Notes under the pieces: generated by a model
The model's input: only the letters and a program-made list of their open reading frames with translations
What the model was told of the DNA's origin: nothing
Database searches by the model: none
Shown: positions 26,285 through 32,551 of the stretch, in pieces
Numbering within the stretch: the first letter of the stretch is position 1
How the letters are laid out: each line of letters starts with the position of its first letter
Translations under genes and position numbers: made by a program
Source of the DNA: a virus
Virus record (IMG/VR): IMGVR_UViG_3300029945_000585
Length of the DNA: 32,551 nt
Strand: one strand, 5' to 3'

Positions 26285-28627
26285 TTAAATTATTAGACTC
26301 GCGGCACGCGGTGATACCGTGACGCCTATCACCACATCATAAAACAGAATATTGAGCAGACTGATCTTGCCTACCACCGAAATACCACCTTGTGCCACGA
26401 TCGCTCCATAATTTCCCAAATTAATCCCGACACTGTAGCGCTGCGCCCGCCGAAGCAAATCCCGCCATTCCTCGATACCCAATTCGACCGGGCCGAGCGC
26501 CAGTTGATCGACGATCTGCTGGCCTAGCTCGCCCCATGGCACGATAACATCCTCGCGGTAGTCATCGATAATGCGAAACCGATCCGACGCCGTTCGAAAA
26601 CACGTTCGATGCAGCGCCGCCTGCGGAAGCAAGTCACAAATGTTCTCTTTATCAAGCTGTGCATCGCCTCTGATCCAGAACAACTGTCGGAAAAACTTTC
26701 CAAACATTTCTGGTGAGAAGGGATCATCGGCGACATTACGAAGAATCTTTCGAGTAATGTTCTGCGGTGCACGCAAGGCCGGAGGGAGGACTTCATCGGG
26801 GGCTTCGAATATAACCAAACGCCCCTCAGCCAGTATCCCTTCACGATTACACCGGCCAGCCGCCTGCGCCAAAGAATCAAGTCCTGCCAAGGCGCGATAC
26901 ACGATCGGAAAATCCAGATCAACCCCGGCTTCGACCAACTGCGTACTCACGACCCGCACAATCTCATGCGCTGCGAGACGGCGCTTGATATCCTCGATGA
27001 TCTCTAAACGATGGGCTGGGCACATCAATGCCGAGAGATGAATGGTTCCAACCGGCATTAAATCGTGTAACACTCGGGCACAGTTTCGTGTATTGACGAT
27101 GGTCAGGCTCGACCCTTGGGCGCTGATCTCCTTAGCCAGTTCATCCCAGGTTGGCGGCGGCGAATCGAAATCTGGCAGCGTGATCTTGAACCGGCGCGTC
27201 GCCTGATGAAGGGCATGCAAATCGGAAACGATTTCAGTCCGTTGGTTCGACTCGGTACGATCAGCAGCGGCATTGATTGTTTTGACCGGTCCTGTCAATC
27301 CGATAAAATTGAGACTTTGGCTAAATCGTCTCGGATCGAGGGCCGGTTGCGTCGCGGTCGAAAGGATCACGGTCACCCCATAGGCCCGCATCAGTTCGCT
27401 CAACGTCCGCAGGATCGGATACAGAAACTCGGACGGGATCATTTGCGCTTCGTCGAGAAAGACCACCGAATTGGCAATGCGATGCAGTTTGCGGCACTGG
27501 CTTGGATGCGATGAAAACAAACTTTCAAAGAACTGCACCGCCGTGGTCACGATGATCGGTGCATCCCAGTTCTCAACGGTCAGTTTCCACTCAACGCTGG
27601 CCGCATCAAGATTTTCACCAGGATCGACATCCTCGGCGTCGGCCACCTCCCGTTTCAGGCTGGCCGGATCGAACACGCTATGATGTTCCAGAACATTATC
27701 GCTGCCGATCGCCTTGCGATAGACCGCCGCCGTTTGTTCAATGATACTGATATACGGGGCCACGTAGATGACCCGGTGCATCCCGTTGATCTTGGCGTGG
27801 TTCAACGCGAACGCCAGCCCCGCCAGGGTCTTGCCGAGGCCGGTGGGAGCCGTGAGCGAGAATAGTCCGGCCGAGGACACGCTGGTCAACAGACAGTCCC
27901 TCAGGAGGCCCGCACGCAGGCGATTGATCGGGCGGGCGGCGGCGGCACCGAGTCCAGCGACGAAGGCGCTCATATAGGCTTGGAGCCGCGCATTGAGCAT
28001 GGGGATGGTCTCATACGTAGCTGCCTTGGCACGAACGGCTGAAATCTCCGGATCACAATAGCGCTCGGTATCCAGACGATCGGCATCGACCAGGGCGGAA
28101 AAGTTCATCCTTATGAATAAAGGCAGATCAGCGACGTTGCCGGGCAGGCTGGGTGCAGCAAGATGTAAAATTTCATCTGGTGGCAGACCTGCCAGTGCGG
28201 TTTCCAGGCGCTCAGTATTGCCAAGCCGGAATTCCAGTGATGACTCGCCAACCGCCGTCTGGGTGGTCTGACTGGGATAATCCGTCAGGCCTGCATGATG
28301 CCCTGCGATGGCAAAGGCCAACAATTCCCCAGGTCGCCCCCATTCCTGAACGGCGTGTTGGGCGCCCGCGATCGAATGTTCAATCCGCCGCTTCTTGATT
28401 GAATGACCCTGTTCCCTGGCTTCCAGACTGTCCCACAGGTAGTCCTGCATGTCCGGACCCCATTTTCCCAGATCGTGCCACCGACCGGCTGCGGCCCCCC
28501 ACGGGGCCGCACCGAATACGGCGGTAAACCCTTCGGCCAGTTCGCCGACATCGAGCAGATGGTGCACCAGCCCATGCGGTTCTTGGCCGGGCGATCGAGG
28601 CGTGTGCGCGATGGGGTAACGTTTCAT
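26285..28627 (-). CDS. cas3: Cas3 HD-nuclease/helicase (type I); start may be TTG at 28669
   Basis: N-terminal HD domain (HGLVHHLLDVGE...RWHDLGKW). Helicase motif I SLTAPTGLGKTLAG. Motif II VVFLDEAQ. ~780 aa. Confidence 0.85.
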   Translation of the reverse strand: MKRYPIAHTPRSPGQEPHGLVHHLLDVGELAEGFTAVFGAAPWGAAAGRWHDLGKWGPDMQDYLWDSLEAREQGHSIKKRRIEHSIAGAQHAVQEWGRPGELLAFAIAGHHAGLTDYPSQTTQTAVGESSLEFRLGNTERLETALAGLPPDEILHLAAPSLPGNVADLPLFIRMNFSALVDADRLDTERYCDPEISAVRAKAATYETIPMLNARLQAYMSAFVAGLGAAAARPINRLRAGLLRDCLLTSVSSAGLFSLTAPTGLGKTLAGLAFALNHAKINGMHRVIYVAPYISIIEQTAAVYRKAIGSDNVLEHHSVFDPASLKREVADAEDVDPGENLDAASVEWKLTVENWDAPIIVTTAVQFFESLFSSHPSQCRKLHRIANSVVFLDEAQMIPSEFLYPILRTLSELMRAYGVTVILSTATQPALDPRRFSQSLNFIGLTGPVKTINAAADRTESNQRTEIVSDLHALHQATRRFKITLPDFDSPPPTWDELAKEISAQGSSLTIVNTRNCARVLHDLMPVGTIHLSALMCPAHRLEIIEDIKRRLAAHEIVRVVSTQLVEAGVDLDFPIVYRALAGLDSLAQAAGRCNREGILAEGRLVIFEAPDEVLPPALRAPQNITRKILRNVADDPFSPEMFGKFFRQLFWIRGDAQLDKENICDLLPQAALHRTCFRTASDRFRIIDDYREDVIVPWGELGQQIVDQLALGPVELGIEEWRDLLRRAQRYSVGINLGNYGAIVAQGGISVVGKISLLNILFYDVVIGVTVSPRAASLII

Positions 28628-28733
28628 GACCCCATCACCATAGGAGGAGTTTTCTTTTCTGTCCAGCAAAAAATGATTGACATTTGTGTTTCTAGCGGAT
28701 ATGGTCTTCCCTAACAGAGAAGGTTTAAGGATT

Positions 28734-29363
28734 ATGGCCCGTCAGTCCCCTCGCATTCGATTTCGCGCCCGTGGCCCGTTCGCCTGCTTTACGCGGCCTG
28801 AATTCAAGGTCGAACGGGTGTCCTATGACGTGATCACCCCGACTGCAGCACAAGGTTTGGCAGAAGCGATATTGTGGAAACCGGAGTTCGCCTTTACAAT
28901 TGAACAGATCGAAGTATTGACACCGATTCGCTATTTGTCCGTTCGACGCAACGAGGTCAAAACAGGCTTCCCGATGCGATCCGGTGATCTGCCGACGCTG
29001 GATATTACTACGCAACGGGTCCAGCGCAATTCCATGATCTTACGCGACGTTGATTACATCATAGAAGCCAGTTTGGCATTGACCCAAAAAGGTATCGCGG
29101 GTCGCCAGGAGATAACCAAGTATGTGGAGATGTTCAGTCGGCGGGTGAAGCTCGGTCAACATTTCCGGGTTCCCGTATTCGGCTGTCGCGAATTCGCCGC
29201 CGATGTAATCGCGGATGATGGTCACACCATACCTATCGCGGAAGATCGCGTATTTGGGATGATGCCGTTGGTCAATGCATGGACCACCGGAGGGCCGCAG
29301 GCCGCGTTCTTTGCCGCCCGCATGATCCAGGGCGTGATCCGTATCCGGGACATGCAGTCATGA
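28734..29363 (+). CDS. cas5c: Cas5c (Cas5d), type I-C
   Basis: MARQSPRIRFRARGPFACFTRPEFKVERVSYDVITPTAAQGLAEAILWKPEF matches the Cas5d N-terminal signature (ELFGDYALFTRP...SY.VPTY.A..GI.E.I.WKP). Confidence 0.8.
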   Translation: MARQSPRIRFRARGPFACFTRPEFKVERVSYDVITPTAAQGLAEAILWKPEFAFTIEQIEVLTPIRYLSVRRNEVKTGFPMRSGDLPTLDITTQRVQRNSMILRDVDYIIEASLALTQKGIAGRQEITKYVEMFSRRVKLGQHFRVPVFGCREFAADVIADDGHTIPIAEDRVFGMMPLVNAWTTGGPQAAFFAARMIQGVIRIRDMQS

Positions 29364-32008: not shown

Positions 32009-32194
32009 AAGCCTCTGCGCGAACCTGAAGCGGTCAAGGAAACGCCAAGAGGTTCGCGCGACGGTTAGCTCTTTGAAATTGTGAATCATTTTGGCAGGCA
32101 AATGCGAATCGCCTAAGCTGTTTGTCCAATGATTGGTGGGTTCGCGCTGCGCGTGCCTTTAACTATTGATATAACGCGCAGATTTCGATAGGGA

Positions 32195-32551
32195 GTTTCA
32201 TCCGTCCTTCGGGACGGGTGTGGATTGCAACTGCATGGCTACGTAGGTCCTTTTAGCGTGCAAGCGTTTCATCCGTCCTTCGGGACGGGTGTGGATTGCA
32301 ACTTTGGCTTTGGCAGACGCGCCCATGGCGTCCTTGTTTCATCCGTCCTTCGGGACGGGTGTGGATTGCAACAGTATATCGATGTCGCCAATCCCTATTT
32401 CACACTCGTTTCATCCGTCCTTCGGGACGGGTGTGGATTGCAACACGGGGATGGATGGCTGTTGGGTTGGGATGACGAGGTTTCATCCGTCCTTCGGGAC
32501 GGGTGTGGATTGCAACTTGCGATTGCCGCATGGCGAAAGTTTCGTCTCATA
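32195..32551 (+). CRISPR. CRISPR array 2 (type I-C-like 37-bp repeat GTTTCATCCGTCCTTCGGGACGGGTGTGGATTGCAAC; 33-35 bp spacers; at least 5 repeats, continues past window end)
   Basis: Repeats at 32195, 32266, 32336, 32408 and 32480. Hairpin CCGTCC-ttcg-GGACGG followed by the TGGATTGCAAC handle, as in I-C repeats. 186-bp leader directly after cas7c. Confidence 0.9.

What the first reader, a model, noticed from the sequence alone, without database searches (positions are those of the whole stretch)
26285..32551. Type I-C effector module without adjacent adaptation genes; cas3 divergent
Canonical I-C is cas3-cas5-cas8-cas7-cas4-cas1-cas2-array on one strand. Here cas3 is on the opposite strand, and cas7c is followed after 186 bp by the array, with no cas4/cas1/cas2. 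Such adaptation-less, compact I-C loci are typical of mobile elements and large phages (recalled from the literature). The array continues beyond the window, so adaptation genes could lie distal.
Basis: partly seen in the sequence, partly recalled or inferred. Interest (0 to 1): 0.6.

Follow-up and report, generated by a model that had tools for sequence, protein, structure and literature searches.

The report
Phage-borne type I-C CRISPR without adaptation genes
This is a complete, selectively maintained type I-C CRISPR-Cas "search and destroy" module with a CRISPR array but no spacer-acquisition genes next to it, sitting in what looks like a very large uncultured bacteriophage; this kind of arrangement has already been described for huge phages.

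Summary
cas3 (26285-28627, minus strand) faces away from cas5c-cas8c-cas7c (28734-32008). A 186-bp leader follows, then at least 5 perfect 37-nt repeats from 32195. All four proteins pass the curated type I-C cut-offs. Their dN/dS against an 86%-identical relative is 0.07-0.11.

No cas4, cas1 or cas2 lies in the 31 kb upstream. A metagenome contig that crosses the array shows none in the 4 kb after its degenerate last repeat.

The carrier is probably a jumbo or huge phage:
- The window opens inside a gene of at least 3545 aa that is homologous to jumbo-phage virion proteins.
- Another window protein matches only 462-735 kb uncultured phages.
- Neither protein finds anything among 72,556 plasmids.

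The compact layout is derived. It is shared by relatives at 86, 52 and 47% Cas8c identity, whereas relatives at 32-36% carry cas4-cas1-cas2.

New details:
- The closest relative has a second, outward-facing array behind cas3. The window keeps only a solitary degenerate repeat there (25457-25483).
- Strains about 99% identical carry different leader-proximal spacers.

No spacer target and no host array were found.

Verdict: a new member of a known kind, of moderate interest.

The parts
26285..28627 (-). cas3 (type I-C Cas3: N-terminal HD nuclease plus SF2 helicase), 780 aa from the ATG at 28627
   Evidence: TIGR01596 and TIGR01587 score above cut-off. PADLOC Cas3c 6.9e-192. PDB I-C Cas3 chains 8zns_A and 8g9u_P match at E 1e-121 over residues 11-702, with the HDLGK, GHHAGL, LVDAD, GxGKT, LDEAQ, SAT and QAAGRCNR motifs aligned. 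dN/dS 0.11 against L011.
28628..28733 (.). Divergent intergenic control region between cas3 and cas5c, with back-to-back sigma-70-like promoter candidates
   Evidence: Plus strand: TTGACA-17-TATGGT at 28677-28705 (10 of 12 matches). Minus strand: TGGACA-17-TATGGT at 28665-28637 (9 of 12). These are consensus matches only; the count of such sites in the region scanned is not above the shuffled expectation. Function is inferred from position.
28734..29363 (+). cas5c (pre-crRNA endonuclease, replaces Cas6), 209 aa
   Evidence: TIGR01876 121 bits against a cut-off of 85. PDB I-C Cas5 'pre-crRNA processing endonuclease' chains 8g9t_N, 8dex_A and 7kha_A match at E 1e-37/38. dN/dS 0.09.
29360..31087 (+). 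cas8c/csd1 (large subunit), 575 aa; its start overlaps the cas5c stop (ATGA)
   Evidence: TIGR01863 309.8 bits, PF09709 362.8 bits. PDB Cas8c chains 8gaf_G and 8dej_I match. It belongs to a divergent lineage: 96, 86, 52 and 47% identity to environmental relatives, then 36% or less to all others. dN/dS 0.08.
30710..31087 (+). Candidate internally translated cas11c (small subunit): in-frame GTG at cas8c codon 451, preceded by GAAAGG
   Evidence: PDB Cas11c chains (7kha_K residue 1; 8g9s_H residue 2) align to Cas8c residues 451/453-568. GTG with an upstream AAGAAAGG is at 30710. Internal translation of Cas11c in I-C is established (PMC7684278). It is inferred here, not shown.
31100..32008 (+). 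cas7c/csd2 (backbone subunit), 302 aa
   Evidence: TIGR02589 311.8 bits. PDB I-C Cas7 chains 7kha_B and 8g9s_B match at E 1e-76 to 1e-82. dN/dS 0.065. The identical protein is found on 23 metagenome contigs.
32009..32194 (+). Leader (186 nt) with motifs GCGCGAACC (32017-32025), GGTTCGCGC (32051-32059 and 32139-32147), a candidate extended -10 TGATATAAC (32167-32175), and a conserved leader-repeat junction ATTTCGATAGGGA
   Evidence: The motifs are conserved in both leaders of relative L011 and partly in the leader after cas2 of canonical relative L012. GGTTCGCGC occurs 3 times in the window, all within the leader, against 0.61 expected. No full sigma-70 consensus was found in the leader. The extended -10 was read by eye.
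32195..32551 (+). CRISPR array: 5 identical 37-nt repeats and 5 spacers (33-35 nt), cut by the window end
   Evidence: The repeat folds into a 9-bp stem with a UUCG loop, followed by the 11-nt tail UGGAUUGCAAC (-15.6 kcal/mol, z -3.1). That tail would be the I-C-type 5' handle.
25447..25483 (-). Solitary degenerate repeat unit on the cas3 strand, about 800 nt downstream of the cas3 stop: GTTTCACCCGGCCTTCGGGCCGGGTGT followed by a diverged handle (CAATTTACCC)
   Evidence: 3 mismatches in 27 nt to the array repeat, including one compensatory stem pair; chance expectation 0. It folds into the same 9-bp hairpin. It resembles the cas3-side repeat of relative L011.
26263..26277 (-). Relic of a second leader immediately after the cas3 stop (ACGCGAACCGGAAGC)
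   Evidence: It aligns with the GCGCGAACC..AAGC motif that begins all leaders of this clade. In L011 the full leader and a repeat follow cas3.

Best explanation
[quoted passage not shown] That phage is probably a jumbo or huge phage of an alphaproteobacterial, Rhizobiales-like host.

Proposed mechanism (shown = supported by sequence evidence here; inferred = from established type I-C biology):
1. A 106-bp divergent control region drives cas3 leftward and cas5c-cas8c-cas7c rightward (inferred).
2. The array is transcribed in the same direction as cas5-8-7, from the leader or by read-through (inferred).
3. Cas5c cuts each repeat at the 3' base of its 9-bp hairpin. This gives crRNAs with the 11-nt 5' handle UGGAUUGCAAC, a 33-35-nt guide and a 3' hairpin. 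The repeat structure is shown; the cleavage is inferred.
4. Cas5c, seven Cas7c, Cas8c and two Cas11c assemble into Cascade. Cas11c would come from an internal GTG at cas8c codon 451 (inferred).
5. Cascade finds a PAM-flanked protospacer, forms an R-loop and recruits Cas3. The HD nuclease and helicase of Cas3 have all conserved motifs aligned (shown) and would shred the target (inferred).

The targets are most likely competing phages or other mobile elements, or the host. None was identified.

New spacers cannot be made by genes at this locus. They must come from adaptation proteins supplied in trans, either by a host I-C system or by a distant locus in the same genome.

The ancestral layout of this clade had two outward-facing arrays (array2-leader-cas3 and cas5-8-7-leader-array1). 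In this genome the cas3-side array has eroded to one degenerate repeat.
For: **Type I-C identity and intactness**
- Curated HMM cut-offs are passed for all four proteins. Pfam and PADLOC agree.
- Solved I-C Cas3, Cas5, Cas8, Cas11 and Cas7 structures match by sequence.
- dN/dS is 0.065-0.11 for all four genes against relative L011.
- The repeats are perfect and carry an I-C-like hairpin and handle.

**No adjacent adaptation genes**
- There are none in the window or in the 4.9 kb to its left.
- There are none in the 4 kb beyond the degenerate terminal repeat in L001 and L010.

**Derived clade architecture**
- L011 (86% Cas8c identity) has divergent cas3, then cas5-8-7, then a leader and repeat.
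- P0003 (52%) and P0004 (47%) have cas5-8-7 with no cas4 after cas7.
- L012, L027 and L028 (32-36%) have the canonical cas3-5-8-7-4-1-2 order.

**Phage carrier**
- Window 1-487 is the end of a gene of at least 3545 aa.
- The last 1801 aa of that gene hit 89 phage records. The best is the 4449-aa virion structural protein of the 490-kb Agrobacterium phage Atu_ph07, followed by Sinorhizobium phage Phosso, PA5oct and GAP32. It has no hit among 72,556 plasmids.
- The 829-aa MVP-shoulder protein matches only the 735-kb and 462-kb uncultured phages LR756501/503/500, at 37% identity over 96% of its length.
- The GT2-TPR protein hits PHROG 13126 at 7e-93 and jumbo phages.
- Relatives of the giant protein lie on 149-520-kb contigs with a tRNA synthetase and many small genes without Pfam hits.
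- Most window ORFs have no Pfam or PHROG hit.

**Array turnover**
- Contigs 98.9-100% identical in the cas genes carry different leader-adjacent spacers. The order is reproducible across independent assemblies: the window matches L006, L007 and L009; L003 matches L004; L002 and L008 are each distinct.

**Literature**
- Almost all huge-phage CRISPR systems lack Cas1, Cas2 and Cas4 (PMC7162821; review PMC11656645).
Against: - No capsid, portal, terminase or tail-sheath gene lies in the roughly 42 kb of DNA held. The phage assignment therefore rests on three or four homologues.
- The repeat and Cas7 peptides are absent from IMG/VR.
- No I-C Cas7 homologue is found in any deposited huge phage. The only 3 matches in the phage collection are short human-faecal fragments.
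- No protospacer was found for 8 spacers in phage or plasmid databases, in IMG/VR (5 spacers, exact match only) or in the DNA held. The biological target is therefore unknown.
- No genome in GTDB carries this repeat, so there is no candidate donor of adaptation proteins.
- The different 'first' spacers, and the one-repeat array in L001 and L010, could partly be assembly artefacts at repeats.
- The promoter calls are not above chance.
Confidence: 0.72

Rival explanations
1. The system is a complete type I-C whose cas4-cas1-cas2 genes lie elsewhere in the same, probably very large, genome. On this reading it is split, not adaptation-less.
For: Leader-proximal spacers differ between near-identical strains. 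The leader keeps motifs shared with the leader of a canonical cas1/2/4-bearing relative. Only about 42 kb of a possibly 200+ kb genome was seen.
Against: There are none within 31 kb upstream or 4 kb downstream. Three other clade members also lack cas4 after cas7. Huge-phage CRISPR systems almost always lack Cas1, Cas2 and Cas4 (PMC7162821).
Confidence: 0.2
2. The window is part of a bacterial chromosome island, a megaplasmid or another non-viral extrachromosomal element, not a phage.
For: No hallmark phage genes are in the window. There are no IMG/VR matches. A cellular-type CFA-synthase gene has 76-86% DNA identity to Rhizobiales and Paracoccus replicons. An HTH repressor, a DNA methyltransferase and an ART-PolyVal protein are also common on plasmids and ICEs.
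Against: The giant protein has 89 phage hits annotated as virion structural protein and none in 72,556 plasmids. The MVP-like protein is found only in 462-735 kb phages. There are no tRNA genes, no housekeeping genes and no conjugation genes.
Confidence: 0.15
3. The locus is a decaying remnant with no current function.
For: The adaptation genes are missing. The cas3-side array is eroded to a single degenerate repeat.
Against: dN/dS is 0.065-0.11 in all four genes. All reading frames are intact and the catalytic motifs align. The five repeats are identical. The architecture is conserved down to 47% Cas8c identity. The identical Cas7c appears on 23 contigs from many samples.
Confidence: 0.04
4. 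It is a CRISPR-associated transposon (type I-C CAST) or another non-defence use of Cascade.
For: It lacks an adaptation module, as CASTs do (review PMC11656645).
Against: An intact HD-helicase Cas3 is present. No TnsA, TnsB, TnsC or TniQ was detected in any ORF scanned.
Confidence: 0.01

Closest known systems
Canonical type I-C (Dvulg) CRISPR-Cas, e.g. Desulfovibrio vulgaris and Neisseria lactamica Cascade-Cas3 (PDB 7KHA, 8DEX, 8G9U)
   Same: It has the same four effector proteins, all above family cut-offs. Cas5c stands in for Cas6. Cas11c is probably embedded in cas8c. The repeat has a hairpin plus an 11-nt handle ending in ..ATTGnAAC. Cas3 is a fused HD nuclease and helicase.
   Different: There is no cas4-cas1-cas2. 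cas3 is inverted relative to cas5-8-7. The repeat is 37 nt with a 9-bp stem and ends ATTGCAAC rather than ATTGAAAC. Cas8c is only about 30% identical to characterised ones. A second cas3-side array exists in the closest relative and survives here as a relic.
Adaptation-less CRISPR-Cas systems of huge phages (Al-Shayeb et al. 2020, PMC7162821), including their 'type I-C variant'
   Same: It is carried by a phage-like genome with giant genes and mostly unannotatable ORFs. It lacks Cas1, Cas2 and Cas4. It uses a Cas5d-like protein and no Cas6.
   Different: The published I-C variant has 'a helicase protein instead of Cas3', whereas this locus has a bona fide I-C Cas3 with an HD domain. No I-C Cas7 homologue was found in the deposited huge-phage genomes searched. 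Spacer targets are unknown here.
Vibrio phage ICP1 type I-F system
   Same: It is a phage-encoded class 1 system with an array and interference genes.
   Different: ICP1 carries its own adaptation module and has known targets (PLE), according to review PMC11656645. This locus has neither.
Plasmid type IV-A3 systems that acquire spacers in trans from a host I-E adaptation module (bioRxiv 10.1101/2023.06.23.546257; reviewed in PMC11656645)
   Same: It is an adaptation-less system on a mobile element whose array nevertheless changes. This is a precedent for borrowing host Cas1-Cas2.
   Different: The type is different (IV against I-C) and the mechanism is different (no nuclease against Cas3). Trans-acquisition here is only inferred from spacer polymorphism.
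Virus-borne solitary repeat units and mini-arrays (review PMC11656645)
   Same: The isolated repeat-like hairpin at 25447-25483 is a single repeat unit in a viral-like genome.
   Different: It resembles the element's own repeat, and the cas3-side repeat of a relative, so it is best read as the eroded end of a second array. Its handle is mutated. No anti-CRISPR role was tested.

Membership tests
Type I-C CRISPR-Cas | Signature large subunit Cas8c/Csd1 | tested here: met
   TIGR01863 309.8 bits (cut-off 218.65) and PF09709 362.8 bits. PDB Cas8c chains match.
Type I-C CRISPR-Cas | Cas5c (Cas5d) present as the pre-crRNA endonuclease, with no Cas6 | tested here: met
   TIGR01876 121 bits (cut-off 85). 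PDB 'pre-crRNA processing endonuclease' chains match at E 1e-38. No Cas6 family hit in any ORF scanned. Catalytic residues were not mapped individually.
Type I-C CRISPR-Cas | Cas7c/Csd2 backbone subunit | tested here: met
   TIGR02589 311.8 bits (cut-off 182.25). PDB 7kha_B matches at E 3e-82.
Type I-C CRISPR-Cas | Single-chain Cas3 with an HD nuclease and an SF2 helicase | tested here: met
   TIGR01596 and TIGR01587 are above cut-off. PADLOC Cas3c 6.9e-192. 8zns_A and 8g9u_P match at E 1e-121 with the motifs aligned.
Type I-C CRISPR-Cas | Small subunit Cas11c produced by internal translation within cas8c | tested here: inconclusive
   An in-frame GTG at codon 451 follows GAAAGG, exactly where the PDB Cas11c chains begin to align. 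Translation was not demonstrated.
Type I-C CRISPR-Cas | Repeat with a stable hairpin and an 11-nt 3' tail (..GGATTGAAAC-like) that becomes the crRNA 5' handle | tested here: met
   9-bp stem, UUCG loop and tail UGGAUUGCAAC. It differs by one base from the common ATTGAAAC ending. It is 37 nt long, as in canonical relative L012.
Type I-C CRISPR-Cas | Adjacent adaptation module cas4-cas1-cas2 between cas7 and the array | tested here: not met
   cas7c is followed by the leader and array. There is no Cas4, Cas1 or Cas2 by HMM scan or by six-frame tblastn in about 42 kb. The locus is therefore a partial (interference-only) I-C locus.
Type I-C CRISPR-Cas | Co-directional operon cas3-cas5-cas8-cas7 | tested here: not met
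   cas3 is on the opposite strand, divergent from cas5c. The same holds in relative L011. Relatives at 32-36% identity are co-directional.
Huge-phage-encoded adaptation-less CRISPR-Cas (Al-Shayeb 2020) | Encoded on a phage genome larger than 200 kb | tested here: inconclusive
   There are jumbo/huge-phage homologues of the giant virion protein, the MVP-like protein and the glycosyltransferase and no plasmid hit. However, only about 62 kb of contiguous sequence can be inferred, and no capsid or terminase gene was seen.
Huge-phage-encoded adaptation-less CRISPR-Cas (Al-Shayeb 2020) | No Cas1, Cas2 or Cas4 in the genome | tested here: inconclusive
   They are absent from all the DNA held. The rest of the genome is not available.
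Huge-phage-encoded adaptation-less CRISPR-Cas (Al-Shayeb 2020) | Spacers target competing phages or host genes | tested here: inconclusive
   No match was found in the phage or plasmid databases, in IMG/VR (exact match only) or in the element itself. The databases probably lack the relevant peat-like community sequences.
Huge-phage 'type I-C variant' of Al-Shayeb 2020 | An unrelated helicase in place of Cas3 | tested here: not met
   This locus has an authentic I-C Cas3 with an HD domain.
Type I-C CRISPR-associated transposon (CAST) | Tn7-like tnsA/B/C/tniQ genes and loss of Cas3 | tested here: not met
   Cas3 is present and intact. No transposase family was detected.

The most novel reading that the evidence does not exclude
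A lineage of large phages maintains a nuclease-competent type I-C Cascade-Cas3 with no adaptation genes of its own. It keeps its arrays current by using a host I-C Cas1-Cas2-Cas4 in trans. Three observations would fit this: leader motifs conserved with canonical I-C leaders, different leader-proximal spacers in strains about 99% identical, and a twin outward-facing array layout in which each cas transcription unit reads into its own leader and array. The solitary degenerate repeat left behind cas3 might additionally be expressed as a decoy or terminator RNA.
Probability: 0.25. Interest if true: 0.65.

Novelty: new member of a known kind. Interest (0 to 1): 0.42.

Why it matters
This would be a natural example of a phage carrying a full Cascade-Cas3 DNA-shredding system. 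The previously described huge-phage I-C variant lacks Cas3. The locus comes from a divergent Cas8c lineage, with at most 36% identity to any canonical I-C. The lineage offers three things:
- A compact four-gene I-C effector set for comparison with the engineered D. vulgaris and N. lactamica systems.
- A test case for how adaptation-less phage arrays gain spacers.
- An evolutionary series running from the canonical layout, through a twin-array adaptation-less layout, to a single array plus a relic repeat.

None of this overturns current understanding. It extends the catalogue of CRISPR systems recruited by mobile elements.

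Tried and rejected
- **Whole-region megablast.** It found nothing in phages. In plasmids it found only short CFA-synthase matches.
- **Cas7c peptides, the 30-nt repeat core and MVP-like peptides in IMG/VR.** No result.
- **Repeat in GTDB genomes,** searched as an exact 20-mer and as a stem-degenerate 37-mer. Zero hits, so no host or donor array was identified.
- **Repeat 20-mer in JGI metagenome contigs.** Four single hits fell inside unrelated coding sequence.
- **Spacer targets.** Eight spacers against phages and plasmids (blastn, E up to 1), five spacers as exact 22-mers in IMG/VR, and all spacers against the DNA held gave no protospacer and no self-target.
- **Synteny with the 735-kb and 462-kb phages around the MVP-like gene.** Only that one gene is shared within 40 kb.
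- **Walking right of the array via the DNA methyltransferase.** The nearly identical protein is only on a 1.8-kb contig, a dead end.
- **Exact look-ups of the 840-aa and 665-aa ORFs.** Not on record.
- **Giant-protein C-terminus against Pfam.** No domain.
- **Rfam at gathering threshold over the window.** Nothing, including no CRISPR-DR family and no intron. There are no tRNAs.
- **Considered and rejected:** CAST, decaying pseudolocus and plasmid origin. The reasons are given under rival explanations.
- **The one-repeat array in L001 and L010** is treated as a probable assembly collapse, not as a real minimal array. It is used only to read the distal flank.

Full report
**1. The observation**

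- cas3 is on the minus strand at 26285-28627. It has an HD nuclease plus a helicase and is 780 aa long from the ATG used by two independent gene callers.
- It diverges from cas5c (28734-29363), cas8c (29360-31087) and cas7c (31100-32008) on the plus strand.
- All four proteins exceed NCBIfam's curated cut-offs for type I-C. PADLOC's best models are Cas3c (6.9e-192), Cas5c, Cas8c and Cas7c.
- Each protein matches solved type I-C structures by sequence. Cas3 matches 8zns_A and 8g9u_P at E about 1e-121, with the HD and helicase motifs aligned. Cas5 'pre-crRNA processing endonuclease' matches at 1e-38. Cas8 and Cas11 match, and Cas7 matches at 1e-82.
- Exactly 186 nt after the cas7c stop, five identical 37-nt repeats (GTTTCATCCGTCCTTCGGGACGGGTGTGGATTGCAAC) alternate with spacers of 33-35 nt, until the window ends. 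None is expected by chance.
- The repeat folds into a 9-bp stem with a UUCG loop, followed by an 11-nt tail, UGGAUUGCAAC. This is the I-C crRNA layout, with one base changed from the usual ATTGAAAC ending.

**2. Are adaptation genes nearby?**

They are not in the window. HMM scans of the ORFs found none. A six-frame tblastn with Cas4, Cas1 and Cas2 from the closest canonical relative also found none, while the Cas7 positive control scored E 1e-100.

The window stops inside the array, so I looked for the same locus elsewhere.
- The identical Cas7c is on 23 metagenome contigs.
- L001 (16 kb) and L010 are 100% identical to the window up to the first repeat.
- They then continue through a 20-nt spacer and a degenerate repeat (GTTTTCATTCGTCCTCCCAGGTCGGATGTGGATTGCAAC) into unique DNA. 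This is the distal end of the array. The internal spacers have probably been collapsed by the assembler.
- The next 4 kb encode five ORFs. None has a Cas hit, and the only annotated one is an N6/N4 DNA methyltransferase.

Adaptation genes further away in the genome remain possible.

**3. What carries the locus?**

Contigs L015-L020 are 99.9% identical and colinear with the left part of the window. They show that window 1-487 is the C-terminus of a gene of at least 3545 aa.
- Its last 1801 aa have no Pfam domain.
- By tblastn they hit 89 phage records. The best is the 4449-aa 'virion structural protein' gp180 of the 490-kb Agrobacterium phage Atu_ph07, followed by Sinorhizobium phage Phosso (469 kb), PA5oct and GAP32.
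- The same query finds nothing in 72,556 plasmids.

Other markers point the same way.
- The adjacent 829-aa protein with a major-vault-protein shoulder domain matches only three records in the phage collection. These are the 735-kb and 462-kb uncultured phages LR756501/503/500, at 37% identity over 96% of its length. Surrounding synteny is not shared.
- A GT2-TPR glycosyltransferase hits PHROG 13126 at 7e-93 and mostly jumbo phages.
- Environmental relatives of the giant protein sit on 149-520-kb contigs. These carry a tRNA synthetase and long runs of small genes without Pfam hits.
- Most window ORFs have no Pfam or PHROG hit.

Evidence against a phage is limited but real. No capsid, portal or terminase gene is in the DNA held, and nothing matches in IMG/VR.

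I conclude, with about 75% confidence, that this is a large (jumbo or huge) phage. A weak host hint toward Rhizobiales-like alphaproteobacteria comes from two sources: the best phage hits, and 76-86% DNA identity of the CFA-synthase gene to Shinella, Rhizobium and Paracoccus replicons.

**4. Evolutionary context**

Cas8c belongs to a divergent lineage. Its relatives are at 96, 86, 52 and 47% identity, all environmental. The next are at 36% or less, and named bacterial Cas8c proteins are about 30% identical.
- The 86% relative (L011) has the same divergent cas3 / cas5-8-7 / leader / repeat layout.
- The 52% and 47% relatives have cas5-8-7 followed by non-cas sequence.
- The 36%, 32% and 33% relatives (L012, L027, L028) have the canonical co-directional cas3-5-8-7-4-1-2 order.

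Loss of the adaptation module and inversion of cas3 are therefore derived traits of this clade.

The genes are under strong purifying selection. dN/dS between the window and L011 is 0.11 for cas3, 0.09 for cas5, 0.08 for cas8 and 0.065 for cas7. This rules out a decaying remnant.

**5. New anatomical details**

(a) In L011 the cas3 stop is followed, on cas3's strand, by a leader of about 190 nt that is homologous to the cas7-side leader. A repeat (ATTTCACCCGGTCCTCGGATCGGGTGTGGAT) then sits at the contig end. That relative therefore has two outward-facing arrays.

In the window only two traces of this second array remain.
- The first leader motif follows the cas3 stop (ACGCGAACCGGAAGC, 26263-26277, minus strand).
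- About 800 nt further lies a solitary degenerate repeat at 25457-25483. It has 3 mismatches in 27 nt, one of them compensatory in the stem, against a chance expectation of 0. It forms the same hairpin but has a diverged handle.
- Between these two traces lies a small gene for a 73-aa secreted repeat protein (25495-25716, minus strand). The solitary repeat directly follows that gene.

I read the solitary repeat as the eroded end of the second array, possibly retained as a terminator.

(b) The leaders share an architecture: GCGCGAACC-N25-GGTTCGCGC-N79-GGTTCGCGC-N47-repeat, plus a conserved junction ATTT.GATAGGGA. This is partly conserved after cas2 in canonical relative L012. It fits a leader that is still a substrate for a I-C integrase, but that is an inference.

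(c) cas8c has an in-frame GTG at codon 451, preceded by GAAAGG. This is exactly where the solved Cas11c chains start to align. It fits the internally translated small subunit known for I-C (PMC7684278).

(d) The 106-bp cas3/cas5c intergenic region has back-to-back sigma-70-like matches. The leader has a by-eye extended -10 (TGATATAAC, 32167-32175). The promoter scan as a whole is not above chance.

**6. Array dynamics**

Contigs from different samples carry different leader-adjacent spacers.
- The window, L006, L007 and L009 share w1-w2-w3.
- L003 and L004 are about 99% identical in the cas genes and share a different pair.
- L002 (99.7% identical) and L008 (100% identical) each have another.

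The orders are reproducible across independent assemblies, which argues that they are real. This means the arrays have turned over since these strains diverged. Repeat-mediated assembly artefacts and deletions cannot be excluded for the single-contig cases.

No candidate donor of adaptation proteins was found, because the repeat is absent from 185,579 GTDB species genomes.

No spacer target was found either.

**7. Mechanism and comparison**

The most likely function is RNA-guided destruction of DNA by a phage-encoded I-C Cascade-Cas3. The probable targets are competing phages or other mobile elements, or the host. Spacer supply would come in trans.

[quoted passage not shown] It differs from their type I-C variant, which has a helicase instead of Cas3 (PMC7162821; review PMC11656645). 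Here an authentic Cas3 is present. Trans-acquisition has a precedent in plasmid type IV-A3 systems. CAST, plasmid and pseudolocus readings are rejected or given low weight, as set out under rival explanations.

**8. Verdict**

This is a new member of a known kind: a phage-borne CRISPR-Cas system with interference genes only. It has some new features (a divergent Cas8c clade, twin-array ancestry, a relic solitary repeat, and spacer polymorphism without cis adaptation genes). These make it moderately interesting (0.42).

Noticed in passing
window 1-487 (+), continuing 4.9 kb to the left in L015-L018: The window starts inside a giant gene of at least 3545 aa with no Pfam domain. Its C-terminal 1801 aa are homologous to giant virion structural proteins of jumbo phages (Atu_ph07 gp180, Phosso, PA5oct, GAP32). 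It has no homologue in 72,556 plasmids.
   Followed up: yes
window 1353-3842 (+): An 829-aa protein has major-vault-protein shoulder and Vault_3 domains. Within the phage collection it matches only the 735-kb and 462-kb uncultured huge phages (37% identity, 96% coverage). A vault-like protein in phages is unusual and its role is unknown.
   Followed up: partly
window 20599-21135 (-) and 23628-24338 (-): A cyclopropane-fatty-acid synthase (CMAS) gene is split cleanly at Pfam profile position 90. The N-terminal piece covers profile 5-90 plus DUF7884, and the C-terminal piece covers profile 90-253. About 2.5 kb separates them and carries about five small same-strand ORFs, including a DUF7694 protein (21844-22452). 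No intron family was detected by Rfam. This may be a mobile insertion or a split gene.
   Followed up: partly
window 25447-25483 (-): A solitary degenerate CRISPR repeat lies on the cas3 strand, directly after a small gene for a secreted repeat protein (25495-25716). It is a relic of a second array that is still present behind cas3 in relative L011 (L011 1-31).
   Followed up: yes
window 32017-32025, 32051-32059, 32139-32147: The leader contains GCGCGAACC and two copies of its complement, GGTTCGCGC (a 9-bp inverted repeat plus a direct copy). These are conserved in both leaders of L011, and the first motif is conserved after cas2 in canonical relatives L012 and L027. They may be a regulator-binding or integration-host element.
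   Followed up: partly
window 5080-5838 (+): An ART-PolyVal ADP-ribosyltransferase domain protein (PF18760, 7e-24). The identical protein is found on contigs in 39 blocks of the contig collection, so the element is widespread in its habitat.
   Followed up: no
window 17718-18869 (+): A GT2 glycosyltransferase fused to TPR repeats. It hits PHROG 13126 at 7e-93, and its homologues are mostly in jumbo phages (PaBG, HRDY3, Erwinia and Dickeya jumbo phages) and Actinomycetia phage DSL-LC01 (43% identity).
   Followed up: partly
window 24394-25452 (+): A 352-aa protein with an N-terminal HTH_3 (Cro/C1, RstR-like) domain and a long C-terminal part of unknown function. It is convergent with the solitary repeat. 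It is a possible regulator of the neighbouring cas3 region. It also has weak PADLOC RmrA-like hits confined to the HTH region.
   Followed up: no
L001 11096-11191 and L010 1410-1505: Two independent assemblies join the leader and repeat 1 directly to a 20-nt spacer and the degenerate terminal repeat. This is probably an assembly collapse of a spacer-heterogeneous array, but a real minimal-array variant in the population is not excluded.
   Followed up: partly
L001 14171-15118 (+), about 3 kb beyond the array: An N6/N4 DNA methyltransferase (PF01555; PHROG 67 at 3e-66) lies downstream of the array. It has 55-69% identical relatives on many environmental contigs and on Citrobacter and Salmonella plasmids.
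   Followed up: partly
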